A stretch of 64,000 nucleotides of DNA from Eledone cirrhosa (taxonomy: Eukaryota): contig OZ024740.1 of the NCBI GenBank assembly GCA_964016885.1, positions 108,562,001 through 108,626,000 on the forward strand, read 5' to 3'. Position numbers and translations under genes: made by a program. Position 1 is the stretch's first letter. Each line of letters starts with the position of its first letter. The notes beneath the pieces were generated by a model. The model searched no databases, was not told the DNA's origin, and saw only the letters and a list, made by a program, of their open reading frames with translations. Shown here piece after piece: positions 362-14,055 of the stretch.

Positions 362-647
362 GAAGTTATATTTAATTTGTTGGGATTCAACAAGCTTAAA
401 CATTTTTATAGCTGATATAAAGCACTCAGCAATTAGTGGAGTAAATACACAATATATTAATAAATGGAAACTATATTTATAAAACCATATTTATTTTATT
501 ATACATATTTCAAGGGCAACCAAGGCAAATTATGGTGCACTTTCATATCTGATGAAAACGCACCATAATTTGCCTTGGTTGCCCTTGAAATATGTATAAT
601 AAAATAAATATGGTTTTATAAATATAGTTTCCATTTATTAATATATT
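362..647. mobile_element. Short PLE-terminus-like insert with fold-back (arms 451-538 / 560-647) and degenerate hammerhead core at 547-604 (+)
   Basis: Arms of about 88 bp are reverse complements. CTGATGA...GAAA TATGTA TA ATAAAA begins at the junction. Same family as 1590-1882 and flanked by TA-rich repeats. Confidence 0.65.
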
Positions 648-755
648 AGAAACAATTAATATATTATATATATATATAAGTATGTATACGTACATACATA
701 CATGTATACAGACGTACAGTAGTATGTATATATACATACATGCACACATATATAT

Positions 756-921
756 ATGTACGTATGGATTTACCGAACATTTATTATAATGCTCGGTGTG
801 TTTGTAAACAAACATCCCGAATTAAGCCGTACAGTGTATAGCAACCATCGTTGCAACGATGGTTGCTATACACTGTACGGCTTAATTCGGGATGTTTATA
901 TATATATAATTCGGGATGTTT
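756..921. repeat. Short dispersed repeat with perfect 88-bp palindrome (810-897)
   Basis: aaacatcccg...catcgttg|caacgatg...cgggatgttt. The reverse complement of 756-850 is similar to 13710-13812. Confidence 0.85.
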
Positions 922-1309
922 ATATATATATAATCGTTTTTATCATTTATTTTGTTTGACCTGTTTAGCTTGATTTGTTTTTTGGCTTAGGTGGTTAATG
1001 CCTTCTTGACCACTTTTTCAGTTTGTATGGCGTTTTAACATATTGTTTAGCTCTAGTTTTCTTAACTATTGGAGCGCTTGCCAGCATATCTACGATTTTG
1101 CGTTTCGTTTCGCTTTTTCTACCAGCCGAAATACGATTCTCGCTGAATTTATATATATATATATATATATATATATATATATATATATATATATATATAT
1201 ATATATATATATATATATATATAATATATATATATATGTGTGTGTGTGAAGTATTTCCGTAGGAAAGGTACAGGAAAAGAGAGTGCTCTATGTAGGCTAC
1301 AGAGCTTTT

Positions 1310-1579
1310 TAGTTATGTAATAAACAACATAAGATAATTATTTTATTTACCAGTGGTTTCTTGAAGACAGATATTTATATCTGTCTTCAGTCGTCAGAAC
1401 GAATAAATAACATGGTGTGTTTATTAAATATGGATTTGAAATATGGTTTTCAAATCCATATTTAATAAACACACCATGTTATTTATTCGTTCTGACGACT
1501 GAAGACAGATATAAATATCTGTCTTCAAGAAACCACTGGTAAATGATATAATTATCTTATGTTGCTTATTACATAACTA
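1310..1579. repeat. Fold-back palindrome (arms about 130 bp) carrying a hammerhead motif on each strand
   Basis: 1310-1440 is nearly the exact reverse complement of 1449-1579. Lies between (TA)n tracts. Confidence 0.9.
1487..1546 (+). ncRNA. Type I hammerhead ribozyme motif (mirror copy 1343-1402 on minus)
   Basis: tcgtt-CTGACGA-c-[tgaagacagata taaa tatctgtcttca]-a-GAAA-cca c tgg-TA-aatga. Core and stems I, II and III are present. Confidence 0.75.
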
Positions 1580-1726
1580 TATATATATAAACAATGGGTT
1601 ATTTAATTTGTTGAATTTTCAACAAATTTAATTTATAACATATTAAAAGCACTCAACAGTCTTCTTCTGGAGTATAATATCAATAATATTAATAAATGGA
1701 AACTATCTTTATAAAAACCATATTTA

Positions 1727-1783
1727 TTTTATTATATATATTTCAAGGGTACCAATATTTTGGTACGCGCTCATCAGATAAAA
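1727..1783 (-). ncRNA. Type I hammerhead ribozyme motif in a short insert with partial inverted copy (1826-1882)
   Basis: Minus strand: TTTTAT-CTGATGA-gcgcgtacca aaatat tggtaccctt-GAAA-TATATA-TA-ATAAAA. The base of stem II is imperfect. Confidence 0.7.
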
Positions 1784-1883
1784 TACAAAATTTGGTTTAC
1801 AGATAGTGACATATTCAGATATTGCTACCCTTGAAATATATATAATAAAATAAATATGGTTTTTATAAAGATAGTTTCCATTT

Positions 1884-2066
1884 GTGGATTGGCAGTATCG
1901 GTAGAGGGTCGGACGCCATGCTTTGACGCAGAGAGTTACGCCCCTTGCCATTCTGAGTTCAAATCCCGTCGAGGTTATATTTGCCTTTCATCCTTACGGG
2001 GTCGATAAAATAAAGTACCAGTAATACACTAGTAATTGCTGGCCTTGTGCCAAAAGTAGAAACTAT
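1884..2066 (+). mobile_element. tRNA-derived SINE (family A)
   Basis: A-box tggcagtatcgg, B-box gagttcaaatccc, conserved core ttgcctttcatccttacggggtcgataaaataaagtaccag and tail ggccttgtgccaaaagtagaaac. Multiple copies in the window. Confidence 0.9.
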
Positions 2067-2092
2067 TATATATATATATATATATATATAGA

Positions 2093-10506: not shown

Positions 10507-11187
10507 TATGCCTAATCAATAACCAATCGATTGACAGAACCCAAACCACAGCCCATGCCGGCTATGCCTGTTTGTGACGGCCGACACAGTAAAGTGGTTA
10601 GCAACTGGGATCTGATACAACTCTGTCCCCCGACCAGCCACCGATTTACAAACTTTACGTGGTGGCGGGAGATTAGAAAACAAATATTTTCGCTCCCGTC
10701 AAAAGCATTCAGCAAACGTGTTTCAAACACAAATTAATAAGGTAGTGAAAAGATGGTTATTAGAAAGAGCAGTCCCACATCGATGTACAATAGAATGGGA
10801 GCATTCGGCTCAGATCTCCAAGTCCCATGGCTAGAGGAAAGCGATAGTAACAATGGTAGTGCCAAGAACCTTTAACGGCATTAAATGCCAGTATCTATCA
10901 TACAGCGATATAGAGTAGCGAGCTGGATTGCGCCAGCCACGTGTGTAAACCAGTCTATTTCACAACTTAAACGAGTGAGAGATAAAATTAATAGCAGGAA
11001 TTAGAGCGCATATCAAAACAAAACAATAAAAAAAAGTGAAAAATTGTTTAACTTACTCTCATTAGTCTGTATATATATATATATATATATATATATATAT
11101 GTGTGTGTGTGTGTGTGTGTGTGTGTGTGTTTTATATATATATATATATATATATATATATATATATATATATATATATATATATAT

Positions 11188-12546
11188 CCTGGTCCCTCTC
11201 GCCTTCTCTTTACCCTGGACCTCACCTCTCTCTATACCGTCATCCCTCACGATGACGGCCTCCGCGCTCTCCAACAATTTTTCAGATTTACGCCCTACCC
11301 CTTACCCCAGCACTACCACTCTTCTCCGTCTGGCTGAGCTTGTTCTCGCCCTCAATGGCTTTTCTTTTCGGGTGGATTCTATCAGCAGGTCTCTGGGGTA
11401 GCGATGGGAACCACAATGGGTCCAAACTATGCCAACTTGTTTGTTGGCTACGTCGAAGCCCAGATCTTCTCCCAGTATGCTGGACCGACTCCTGAGTTAT
11501 ACGGACGTTACATAGACAACTCTATCGGTGCCACCTCTCTATCACGAGAACAGCTCGACTGCTTTCTTTCTTTTGTCCAATCTTTCCATCCTGCTCTCAC
11601 TTTCATCGCCTACGTCTCCGATTCTTCTGTCCCTTTTCTAGAAATCTCTATCTATTAATCACTCTCACCACACCCTCTCTACTTCCATCTACATTAAACC
11701 AACAGACACCCACTCTTACCTCGATTTCACCTCCTCCCATCCAACCCACACCAAACACTCCATTCCCTATTCCCAATTCTTCCGTCTTCGTTGGCTCTGT
11801 AGCCAGGACAACGATTTCGAAACCCATTCCCTTCCTGCTTCATTTAGCGTGGATATCCCCCCAGCCTGATCCAAGCTACTCTCACTCGCGCCCGTGCAAC
11901 AGACCATACCACAGCCCTCTCACCTCACTCCCGCGTTTCTTTCCCTCTCACCTACCACCCCATCACCCTACCACTCTGGCGACATATCCTCCATTCCTTC
12001 CGCATCCTCTCTTCTGACCCCATCACTTCTCGCTTTTTTCCAAACCGACCCATTACTGCTTTTAAGCGCGCCCGCAACCTCCGCGACCTCTTGGTTCGCA
12101 GTTCCTTCTCGTCCTCTCCCATGACTACCCCCGGCTCTCATCCTTGTTCTCGTCCCCGCTGCAACACTCGTCCCTTCATTTCCACCCTCACCACTCTCAC
12201 AGGCCCTAACGTGTCTTTCCGTATCCGCAACTCTTTCACCTGCACATCTACCCACGTTGTCTATGCCCTCCGATGTTCCCTTTGCGGGTCTTTATACATC
12301 GGACAAACGGAACGCCTTATGGCGGACCGTTTTGCTGAGCATTTGAGGGACATACGACTCGGTTTGGATACTCCTGTCGCCCGTCATTTCTGTTCATCTG
12401 GTCATTCTTCTCTACATGGTTCAGCCCTGGGTGTCCTTTTACATCATGGATCACAGGCCTCACGCACCAGGATTGAACAGAGTCTGATTCACCGCCTTGG
12501 TTCTTATTCCCCTCTTGGACTCAACTCACCTCCCCAATTTTTTTAA
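11188..12546 (+). pseudogene. PLE reverse transcriptase + GIY-YIG endonuclease (frameshifted)
   Basis: [35 protein letters not shown] (YIDD mutated), Cys-rich linker, and VVYALRCSLCGSLYIGQTERLMADRFAEH. Confidence 0.92.
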
Positions 12547-13136
12547 TACCCCGTCCATTTTCACATGCGCTTGTACATTCAGCCCTAGATTCCTATCCCT
12601 CTCTCATGACTATTAACATCTTCTCTTACAACTAATACAGACCGACTAAATATGCTCTCTCCACTTTTCCCTTCACTGCTCTGTATACACACATACACAC
12701 CATTATATTAACATACTTTTACTTATAGCTTCGTACTAACATGCACACACACTCTTTTACTTACATACACACACATTTCTTCTTTGCTTCGTACGCACGT
12801 ATAATAATACACACGCACGCACACACACACACACACACACACACACACACACACACACACACACACACACACACACACACACACACACACACACACACAC
12901 ACACACGCTTATGCACGTGAGCAAGTATAGCTCTTTTTACAAAACGTTTTTTTTTTTCCATTTCAGGTAGACGCGCTCCATCATCCACTTTTCTAAAAAA
13001 TAAATCATACACAAAACGCCAGCACCAACAGTTTTCCAAGAGATGTCAACATGAATGGACCCGTTATTTTTATCTAAAGACATTTTTTCCAATTCCAACG
13101 CGCTTATCCTCTCAATCTATCTTATTTCTCATTCTT

Positions 13137-13172
13137 TCTTCTGATGAAGGACTTGCGTCCGAAACGTTAAGA
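13137..13172 (+). ncRNA. Minimal hammerhead ribozyme of the PLE terminus
   Basis: tctt-CTGATGA-a-ggac ttgc gtcc-GAAA-cg-TT-aaga, with palindromic AACGTT at stem III. Confidence 0.88.
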
Positions 13173-13510
13173 CCCTATTCCTGCTATTTCAAGCCTTAAC
13201 CTAATATATTCCTTCCATATATTGTACCGATTGGGTTGTTATTTCTGTTTACCTTTTACACACACACACACACACATATATATATATATATATGAAAAAA
13301 TGAGTATTGACGTACATGGGAGTCGAACCCAAATATATATATATATATATATATATATATATATATATATATATATATATATATATATATATATATTCAG
13401 GTTTGAGGTTCACCACTGTATAGAGCTGGTCTATTCCGTAAGGTCGCCCTCGGGTCCTCGATTTTCAGCCCCATGGATTTTATCTATTACATTCACGTAT
13501 TATATTTCGA

Positions 13511-13568
13511 ATACCTGATGATATCACCGGATTCATACGGAACCCGGTCATTGAAATGATCATAGTAT
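13511..13568 (+). ncRNA. Type I hammerhead motif in a separate insert of about 220 bp (13397-13618)
   Basis: atac-CTGATGA-t-atcaccgg..ccggtcat-t-GAAA-tgatca-TA-gtat, followed by AATAAA. Bounded by (TA)n. Confidence 0.75.
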
Positions 13569-13639
13569 AATAAACCTTTTAAGGATTTACACAAATCCAG
13601 CCTCCTGTCATTTCATTATAATATATATATATAGGTATA

Positions 13640-13680
13640 CGGGTCTGACGATAGCTAACAAGCTTGAAACTAGTACATCG
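13640..13680 (+). ncRNA. Degenerate hammerhead motif in insert 13633-13812
   Basis: CTGACGA-t-agc taacaa gct-t-GAAA-ctag-TA. Stem I pairs poorly. Confidence 0.5.
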
Positions 13681-14055
13681 TTCCTGTGTCAGTGTTGAAC
13701 AAAAAGGTGACGTGGTTGCCTGAACACTGTACGGCGTAAATCAGGCTGTCCGTTTGTTTACAAACGAACAAAGCGAACATTATAATAAATGTTCGGTAAA
13801 CTGATACGTACATATATATATGTGTGCCTGTATGTATATATATATATATATATATATATATATATATATATATGCATGCTACTGTACGTCTGTATACATA
13901 TATGTATGTACGTATACATACATACTTACATTTAAGTAAGTGCCGTACTAAGAGTGAGAAATGCAATTTCGTTTCATTCTATTCCATTTATATATATATA
14001 TATATATATATATAAGAGACGTAAGTTAAGAAAATTATAAAATTAACTTACTTAC

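What the first reader, a model, noticed from the sequence alone, without database searches (positions are those of the whole stretch)
362..13812. Dense array of diverse hammerhead-ribozyme mini-elements embedded in (TA)n tracts
Seen: 12 HHR-like cores within 14 kb (547, 1343, 1487, 1727, 2606, 3650, 3967, 4690, 10396, 13137, 13511, 13640), with more at 36-41 kb and 52 kb. Stems differ completely between families. Most share type I topology, a short and often palindromic stem III, a downstream AATAAA-like signal and TA-rich flanks. Only two are attached to clear PLE ORFs. Known: PLE pseudo-LTRs carry minimal HHRs that can act as dimers, and non-autonomous HHR retrozymes exist. Inference: these are either heavily 5'-truncated ends of many PLE families or non-autonomous ribozyme elements mobilised by PLE RT, all targeting TA microsatellites. 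Such diversity at a single locus may be undocumented.
Basis: partly seen in the sequence, partly recalled or inferred. Interest (0 to 1): 0.78.

Follow-up and report, generated by a model that had tools for sequence, protein, structure and literature searches.

The report
Rearranged hammerhead ribozyme in animal retrozymes
Most of this cluster is ordinary debris of Penelope-like jumping genes piled into TA repeats, but one repeat family carries the parts of a hammerhead ribozyme in a scrambled order, kept by compensating base changes across related families, and is predicted to be a self-cutting RNA of a shape that my literature searches did not find described in animals.

Summary
All 12 sites carry hammerhead parts, though several are decayed. 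The cluster is dense but not special: 80 evenly spaced 10-kb stretches of this 3.0-Gb genome hold 81 type I motifs, and 2 of 80 match the window. Families A, D, F and I are 5'-truncated 3' ends of coding Penelope-like elements (PLEs). E, H and J are non-coding tandem units, i.e. retrozyme-like. That much is known biology.

The surprise is site 4690 (family J), which is not type I. Its blocks run cleavage site, GAAA, CUGAUGA: the non-circular 'SGC' order, which my searches found only in Eckert 2023. Stems I and III sit in exact register and covary across J, K, M and further families (93% of cells paired; 34-45% when slid). Unlike published SGC ribozymes, most of stem II pairs with a strand at the motif's 5' end, and a k-turn consensus follows stem III. 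Roughly 40,000 copies are extrapolated. Cleavage and expression are untested.

The scan had no note on this motif; it noted a ribozyme-less PLE-type tandem repeat in another genome.

The parts
4619..4768 (+). Family J copy: 5'-truncated end of a 623-nt non-coding tandem unit, TA tract on both sides
   Evidence: (8 copies at period 623 on C3)
4685..4689 (+). Strand a: displaced 5' strand of stem II, pairs with 4715-4719
   Evidence: helix 1: 90% paired, 3 of 5 pairs change on both sides
4690..4695 (+). Strand b: pairs with 4735-4740, helix joining the tips of stems I and II
   Evidence: helix 2: 98.8% paired, 5 of 6 pairs change on both sides
4696..4711 (+). Block S: k-turn non-bulged strand (4696-4698), stem III 3' strand to U16.1 (4699-4703), A17 (4704, predicted cut after it), stem I 1.x strand (4705-4711)
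   Evidence: the cut site is predicted by analogy only
4715..4734 (+). Block G: stem II 11.x strand (4715-4720), GAAA (4721-4724), stem III 5' strand (4724-4728), 3-nt bulge and k-turn G.A positions (4729-4734; this copy has T at 4733 where its family has A)
   Evidence: 4733 reads A in nearly all laid contig depth
4735..4755 (+). Strand g (4735-4740), stem I 2.x strand (4741-4747), CUGAUGA (4748-4754), position 10.1 (4755)
   Evidence: contiguous stem II beyond 10.1 is not supported
362..647 (.). Fold-back copy of a sister of family A (about 80% identical), core 549+, stem I broken
1247..1580 (.). Family B fold-back: two 3' ends head to head, tail on one side only; cores 1397- and 1492+
1584..1890 (-). 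Family A PLE 3' end with a short inverted 5' segment; core 1777-
   Evidence: 6 of 30 long copies have a PLE endonuclease-like end about 1.3 kb upstream
2477..3483 (-). Family I PLE 3' end; type I motif with U3-A8 and GCAA, box 2638-2632
   Evidence: 14 of 30 copies have the endonuclease end 1.0-1.15 kb upstream
3479..3898 (-). Family D PLE 3' end; core 3688-
   Evidence: 12 places among the loci held have the ORF end within 420 nt upstream
3922..4161 (+). Second family I copy with tail; box 3970-3976
10241..11069 (-). Family E: nearly one whole non-coding unit of about 830 nt; core 10502-, 84-nt stem II region
11188..13264 (+). Family F: 5'-truncated, broken PLE (RT end and GIY-YIG) with a minimal type I motif at 13141, 597 nt after the ORF
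   Evidence: (GIY-YIG E 0.002, below Pfam's cut-off)
13397..13627 (+). Family G 3' end preceded by an inverted tail piece; core 13515; young family
13633..13991 (+). Family H: part of a 450-490-nt non-coding tandem unit; core 13645
36051..36398 (.). Family C fold-back, 174-nt arms, cores 36156- and 36293+
   Evidence: not searched genome-wide

Best explanation
The cluster is a pile-up of 5'-truncated Penelope-like element ends and non-coding tandem repeats, likely all inserted into TA tracts by Penelope enzymes, and one repeat family (J, 4619-4768) carries hammerhead parts in non-circular order that are predicted to fold into a self-cleaving RNA cutting after base 4704. Shown: repeat families, fixed TA-abutting 3' ends, ragged 5' ends, inverted copies, one-sided tails, ORF linkage for A, D, F and I, tandem non-coding units for E, H, J, K, M and N, and covariation of four helices in the J-type motif. 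Inferred: a PLE protein nicks TA DNA and starts reverse transcription inside the element RNA at one of two sites 60-150 nt past the ribozyme, which gives the two 3' ends; new TA flanks then attract further insertions. Inferred for J: block order S-G-C; stems I and III form normally; stem II is one pair from after CUGAUGA stacked on 4-5 pairs from the 5' strand; a k-turn bends the stem III extension so that its helix reaches the tips of stems I and II, in one molecule or in a strand-swapped dimer; cleavage would cut multimeric transcripts into unit-length RNAs that can circularise, as type I motifs do in known retrozymes.
For: Anatomy matches published PLE features (against 18, 19, 27, 59). ORF linkage. 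Tandem units. J-type structure on 14 picked subfamily rows: 92.9% of 350 cells paired, 15 of 25 pairs change on both sides, slid controls 34-45%. Ten rows, 7 of them found by a pattern that ignored the 5' half: 84.6% paired, 17 of 24 pairs change on both sides, slid controls 34-49%. Family M, with other spacing, keeps stems I and III. CUGANGA, GAAA, U16.1 and A15.1 are invariant in alignments A1-A3. k-turn positions: 1b.1n is G.A in 40 of 41 distinct J/K copies; 2b.2n is A.G in 14 of 18 J and A.U (Kt-23 type) in 22 of 23 K. Pattern search: 400 matches, 0 for the reversed control. The motif lies the same distance from the TA-abutting end as type I motifs of sister families, and the type I scan lists no hit that I could assign to J units. 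Independent contigs hold J and its variants.
Against: No cleavage or expression data. Stem II after CUGAUGA is not supported beyond one pair (38% paired), and that pair holds in only 7 of 10 rows of A3. Raw descriptor counts do not single out SGC: 8 SGC, 8 GCS and 3 CSG hits in 800 kb; the case rests on family conservation. Fold energies are unremarkable (z -1.6 to +0.8, no pseudoknots modelled). M and N lack the k-turn consensus. My rough geometry makes a one-molecule fold borderline. Rows are related, so cells overcount events, and I picked the rows. No ORF-bearing parent was found for J, K, M or N. A PLE ribozyme was dispensable for insertion in vitro.
Confidence: 0.7

Rival explanations
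1. The J-type motif is a conserved structure descended from a hammerhead that no longer cleaves and now serves as a binding or priming signal for the PLE protein.
For: Stem II next to the core is reduced to one pair. PLE ribozyme mutants still inserted in vitro, and that ribozyme needed protein to cut. Family I spread recently with GCAA in place of GAAA in 29 of 30 copies, so a canonical core may not be needed for mobility here.
Against: All core bases stay invariant across families whose stems have turned over. Natural hammerheads with a one-pair stem II or a U-U first pair are reported.
Confidence: 0.2
2. The active site is assembled only between two units (strand-swapped dimer), so the single-unit drawing is not the working fold; the permuted order would replace the palindromic stem III as the device that restricts cutting to multimers.
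For: Zero-nucleotide links tie helix b-g to the tips of stems I and II, and 2-5-nt links tie it to stem III, which points the other way. Units occur in tandem. Metazoan type I motifs work as dimers. This rival shares the helices of the best explanation and differs only in who pairs with whom.
Against: A k-turn (about 50 degrees included angle) at exactly that joint could close the fold in one molecule. Published SGC ribozymes with a zero-length link were predicted in single molecules.
Confidence: 0.3
3. Everything here is ordinary PLE debris, and the J arrangement is a chance or fold-back by-product copied passively.
For: Fold-back inversions are common in these elements. Loose descriptors give chance hits in all non-circular orders.
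Against: A fold-back makes nested hairpins, not crossing helices in register with a catalytic core. Covariation in all four helices; 400 against 0 in the pattern control.
Confidence: 0.07

Closest known systems
EN+ Penelope-like elements with pLTR hammerheads (PMC4209133; PMC8557442; PMC11167929)
   Same: C-terminal GIY-YIG, type I motif in the 3' repeat, palindromic stem III, U3-A8 variant, heavy 5' truncation, inverted 5' copy, one-sided tail, microsatellite targeting, many dissimilar motif families per genome.
   Different: Stem II regions up to 80-110 nt; a GCAA core in family I (not among the variants in section 8 of PMC3088659); about one motif per 10 kb genome-wide by my descriptor, against about 2,000-9,000 per genome cited in PMC4209133.
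Non-LTR retrozymes of animals (PMC7229834; bioRxiv 10.64898/2026.07.22.740005)
   Same: Non-coding tandem units with one hammerhead each, dimers to long arrays, proposed PLE origin.
   Different: Units of 450-830 nt against 220-390 nt in the passages read; they keep PLE tails, inversions and TA targeting; J, K, M and N carry a non-type-I motif, which type I searches would miss.
Type-SGC hammerhead ribozymes, HRIMA-1 (PMC10085705)
   Same: S-G-C order, about 3-nt link from stem I to stem II, an extra helix joining the other sides of stems I and II, intact core.
   Different: Found in chromosomal repeats of an animal. The stem II 10.x strand and its helix extension stand 5' of block S rather than after CUGAUGA, which breaks that paper's assumption that block C is indivisible. 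A k-turn consensus links stem III to the joining helix. No sequence likeness to the SGC oligos and alignment rows seen in its supplement.
Simple k-turns, Kt-7/box C/D and Kt-23 types (PMC4316175)
   Same: 3-nt bulge followed by G.A and A.G (J, P) or G.A and A.U (K).
   Different: Sequence match only; absent from families M and N; my one search for a k-turn in a retrotransposon hammerhead found nothing relevant.

Membership tests
EN+ Penelope-like element | RT plus C-terminal GIY-YIG ORF upstream of the 3' repeat | tested here: met
   F in the window; A 6 of 30, I 14 of 30, D 12 places. Not found for E, H, J, K, M, N; open for B, C, G. No full-length ORF was checked for any family.
EN+ Penelope-like element | 5' truncation, inverted 5' copy, partial tandem, optional tail | tested here: met
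EN+ Penelope-like element | Insertion bias for microsatellites | tested here: met
   3' ends abut (TA)n in most copies; rho 0.39 with TA content
EN+ Penelope-like element | Clade placement (Neptune, Poseidon, Hydra) by RT phylogeny | not tested
   No tree was built
Non-LTR retrozyme | Non-coding tandem unit | tested here: met
   J 623 nt x 8, longest ATG frame 31 aa; H 450-490, E about 830, K about 572 (one 123-aa frame, not examined), M about 775, N 753, J4 512-520
Non-LTR retrozyme | Type I hammerhead in each unit | tested here: not met
   Met for E and H; not met for J, K, M, N, whose motif is in SGC order
Non-LTR retrozyme | Expressed, self-cleaved, circular unit-length RNA | not testable with these tools
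   No RNA run was available
Type-SGC hammerhead | Blocks in order S, G, C with intact core and covarying stems I and III | tested here: met
Type-SGC hammerhead | Short link from stem I to stem II and a helix joining their other sides | tested here: met
   3-nt link; helix b-g 98.8% and 86.7% paired
Type-SGC hammerhead | Stem II strand directly follows CUGAnGA (block C whole) | tested here: not met
   38% paired, no better than shuffles; the 11.x strand pairs with a 5' strand instead
Type-SGC hammerhead | Site-specific self-cleavage | not testable with these tools
   Needs an in vitro assay
Simple k-turn | 3-nt bulge followed by G.A and A.G (or A.U) pairs | tested here: met
   J, K; P; not in M and N
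Simple k-turn | Kinked fold, L7Ae-family binding | not testable with these tools
   Needs structure or binding assay

The most novel reading that the evidence does not exclude
A hammerhead topology outside the six described block orders - SGC order with block C split and a k-turn closing the fold - is an active ribozyme that drives a superfamily of Penelope-mobilised retrozymes with tens of thousands of copies in this animal genome, making it the first non-circularly permuted ribozyme with a genomic home and a plain job.
Probability: 0.55. Interest if true: 0.88.

Novelty: new variant of a known kind. Interest (0 to 1): 0.72.

Why it matters
Non-circular RNA permutations are known, in the library I could search, from one paper, mostly on metatranscriptome contigs, and that paper leaves open how they arise and how the far ends of stems I/II and III meet. 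Here a high-copy chromosomal superfamily with many subfamilies offers an evolutionary series and a concrete answer to test, the k-turn. It would also show that ribozyme censuses of animal genomes, which use type I-III descriptors, miss whole retrozyme families. Secondary: by my descriptor this genome holds some 300,000 type I motifs, and its non-coding units keep PLE tails and inversions, which links retrozymes to PLE insertion chemistry.

Tried and rejected
Rfam scan: no hammerhead family hit at E<=1. Locus-specific 'array' or gene-like cluster: rejected, background is about 1 motif per 10 kb. Reading 4690 as type I, II or III, or on the other strand: no matching stems. Contiguous stem II for J: rejected. 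Likeness of J to twister or pistol ribozymes (recalled consensus, by eye): dropped once the hammerhead register was found. No RNA holder listed for J; the four runs laid are contigs of unrecorded kind from one study and show presence only. J/K pattern in metagenome contigs: 3 hits, none with stems I and III by eye, taken as chance; viral contigs: 0. Autonomous parent for J, K, M, N: the PLE ORFs near L171, L259 and L273 are separated by TA tracts or belong to other families. Parent for G: the 2.8-kb span between two motifs in L327 has no PLE protein hit, and the ORF in L328 is not shown to be contiguous. Lunse et al. 2017 (PMC5785218) is not held; I saw only its title in a reference list, and it may describe further small PLE hammerhead variants. 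Earlier scan notes: none by sequence or in this genome.
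Full report
SETTING. The window is G000:C1:108,562,001-108,626,000 in a 3.0-Gb assembly. It is rich in microsatellites and broken retrotransposons. That it is an animal, probably a cephalopod, is my inference from these features and comes from no call.

1. THE OBSERVATION. All 12 coordinates carry hammerhead parts. A strict type I descriptor finds 2 motifs in 1-14,000 and 4 in the window, against 0.01 and 0.03 in shuffles. 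A tolerant descriptor, written after seeing the sites, finds 7 in 1-14,000 against 0.11. Rfam finds none. Several window copies are decayed relative to their families (549, 10502, 13645, 52263). Sites 2606 and 3967 have UUGANAA and GCAA; 29 of 30 family copies keep GCAA. U3-A8 is a known natural change, also in PLEs; I did not find the GCAA change in the section I read. Site 4690 is not type I.

2. THE CLUSTER IS NOT SPECIAL. Eighty 10-kb stretches taken at round, evenly spaced coordinates hold 81 tolerant hits; 43 have none and 2 have five or more; the window's first 10 kb has five and its upstream neighbour one. Shuffling the first 40 stretches leaves 1 hit. This extrapolates to about 300,000 motifs. 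Counts rise with TA content (rho 0.39).

3. THE FAMILIES. Eight window families were searched in the genome. First-look candidates (not copy numbers): F 1604, A 2479, B 2268, E 3521, G 1723, I 2954, H 2287, J 1176. C and D were not searched. In the copies fetched, 3' ends are fixed and mostly run into (TA)n, 5' ends are ragged, inverted 5' copies are common and a tail occurs at one end. These are published PLE features (PMC8557442, passages; PMC4209133, parts 1-2 of 4), and the tail is explained by two internal start sites of reverse transcription (PMC11167929, parts 1-2 of 4). ORF linkage: F in the window, 597 nt after a GIY-YIG-like ORF; I in 14 of 30 copies and D at 12 places; A in 6 of 30 long copies, with 1.8 kb of continuous likeness. 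Relatives of B and C lie 1.0-1.3 kb after PLE ORFs, but the window's own B, C and G are unresolved. E, H and J are non-coding tandem units of about 830, 450-490 and 623 nt. They work like the retrozymes of PMC7229834 (passages) and bioRxiv 10.64898/2026.07.22.740005 (part 1 of 5 and passages). So far the finding is known biology.

4. THE PERMUTED MOTIF. In J the cleavage-site block comes first, GAAA second and CUGAUGA last, the SGC order of PMC10085705 (sections 4, 13, 14, 15, part 1 of 18, and supplement passages). Stem I (4705-4711 with 4741-4747) and stem III (4699-4703 with 4724-4728) fall in exact register, with a 3-nt link from stem I to stem II as in HRIMA-1. An order-blind scan of the loci found J subfamilies and two distant families, K and M (2077 and 929 candidates). 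The raw scan is not selective: 800 kb of evenly spaced sequence gave 8 SGC, 8 GCS and 3 CSG hits, but the SGC hits are J or M members and the others are unrelated AT-rich stretches or pieces of type I motifs. From 123 SGC hits I picked 17 rows as distinct subfamily examples: the first five positions of stem I pair in 100% and of stem III in 98%, slid registers in 7-62%. Fourteen ungapped rows (M and one indel row left out) give 92.9% paired cells and 15 of 25 pairs changed on both sides. Rows are related, so this counts cells, not events.

5. HOW IT DIFFERS FROM PUBLISHED SGC. (a) The bases after CUGAUGA do not form stem II beyond one pair (38% paired). The 11.x strand pairs instead with a strand at the 5' end of the motif, with U-A, A-U and G-C at position 11.2 in J, K and M. 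That strand runs straight into a 6-pair helix whose partner runs straight into stem I, the counterpart of HRIMA-1's joining helix. J thus has HRIMA-1's four helices but is opened inside block C. (b) Between stem III and the joining helix lie a 3-nt bulge and G.A pairs: 1b.1n is G.A in 40 of 41 distinct J/K copies; 2b.2n is A.G in 14 of 18 J and A.U in 22 of 23 K, matching standard and Kt-23-type k-turns (PMC4316175, passages). M and N have other loops there. The window's own copy has lost the 2b adenine.

6. HELD-OUT CHECK. A genome pattern that named only GAAA, the k-turn GA and CUGAYGA..GGA, and excluded the J/K base before the box, gave 400 matches and 0 for the reversed control. I examined its 30 loci and 20 further places chosen for differing from J and K. 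About half of those 20 had lost the 5' half by truncation or decay and one looks like chance; the rest show new families (N, 753-nt unit; P; others) and a J4 array of about 90 kb with a 512-520-nt period. Seven new rows with J spacing plus three old ones give 84.6% paired and 17 of 24 pairs changed on both sides; the first stem I pair is broken in 6 of 10 because the pattern selected for that, and the 10.1-11.1 pair holds in 7 of 10. Eleven SGC-type copies lie in the 800 kb sample (12 bins, two of them one copy), about 40,000 genome-wide, within a factor of two.

7. MECHANISM. Shown: anatomy, repetition, covariation. Inferred: PLE proteins mobilise both coding and non-coding units into TA tracts, and each insertion leaves TA flanks for the next. 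The J-type motif likely cuts multimeric transcripts to unit length, since it lies where type I motifs lie in sister families and keeps every core base. Whether it folds alone, closed by the k-turn, or as a swapped dimer is open; my rough geometry allows either. Against: nothing is shown to cleave or to be transcribed, fold energies are unremarkable, stem II is weak next to the core, and a PLE ribozyme was dispensable in vitro.

8. NOVELTY. Searches for 'non-circular permutation' + hammerhead, 'type-SGC', permutation + retrozyme + pseudoknot, hammerhead + cephalopod or octopus, kink-turn + retrotransposon, and 'permuted hammerhead' found no report of such a motif in an animal genome (listings, plus passages of PMC13725137). 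Eckert et al. searched RefSeq 85 but would have required a whole block C. I saw only passages of their supplement, so a eukaryotic row there cannot be excluded; subscription papers and Lunse 2017 were not available. Verdict: the cluster as stated is known in kind; the J-type motif is a new variant of a known ribozyme, untested.

Noticed in passing
window 4830-10222: Ty3/gypsy-type LTR retrotransposon on the minus strand with two similar LTRs and a broken RT-RNase H-integrase region, inserted in the TA tract behind J.
   Followed up: no
window 2632-2638 (-) and 3970-3976 (+); L113-L142: Young PLE family I has U3-A8 plus GCAA for GAAA in 29 of 30 copies, while sister families keep GAAA: either an undescribed tolerated core change or a dead ribozyme in a mobile element.
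   Followed up: partly
G000:C1:81.547-81.636 Mb (L378-L395): Array of about 90 kb of the J4 unit (period 512-520 nt), a retrozyme-like unit turned satellite.
   Followed up: partly
L183-L222, L283-L322: Dozens of type I families with 6-10-nt palindromic stem III and stem II regions up to about 115 nt; about one per 10 kb.
   Followed up: partly
window 1870-2065, also near 51900-52060, 60.3-61.7 kb and many loci: A short interspersed repeat with a tRNA-like head, often nested in the same TA tracts, likely a SINE.
   Followed up: no
window 32016-32249 (-): U2 snRNA-like copy with a degenerate 3' half, 60.7 bits, above the Rfam cut-off.
   Followed up: no
window 14306-14944 (+) and 45989-46480 (-): Two fragments that read like the restriction-like endonuclease end of a site-specific LINE (recalled likeness); no Pfam hit.
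   Followed up: no
window 21950-22899: 34-bp minisatellite, 28 copies, 95% matches.
   Followed up: no
window 666-908: Inverted fragment about 78% like family H, ending in a 110-nt palindrome, no ribozyme core.
   Followed up: partly
L327:3300-6400: Young family G has a 2.8-kb span between two ribozymes with internal duplications and no PLE protein hit: possibly a long non-autonomous unit.
   Followed up: partly
L303:857-3056 region (minus strand, 6945-9074 in reversed coordinates): Open 710-aa PLE-like frame with RT and GIY-YIG-like end, the type linked to family A.
   Followed up: partly
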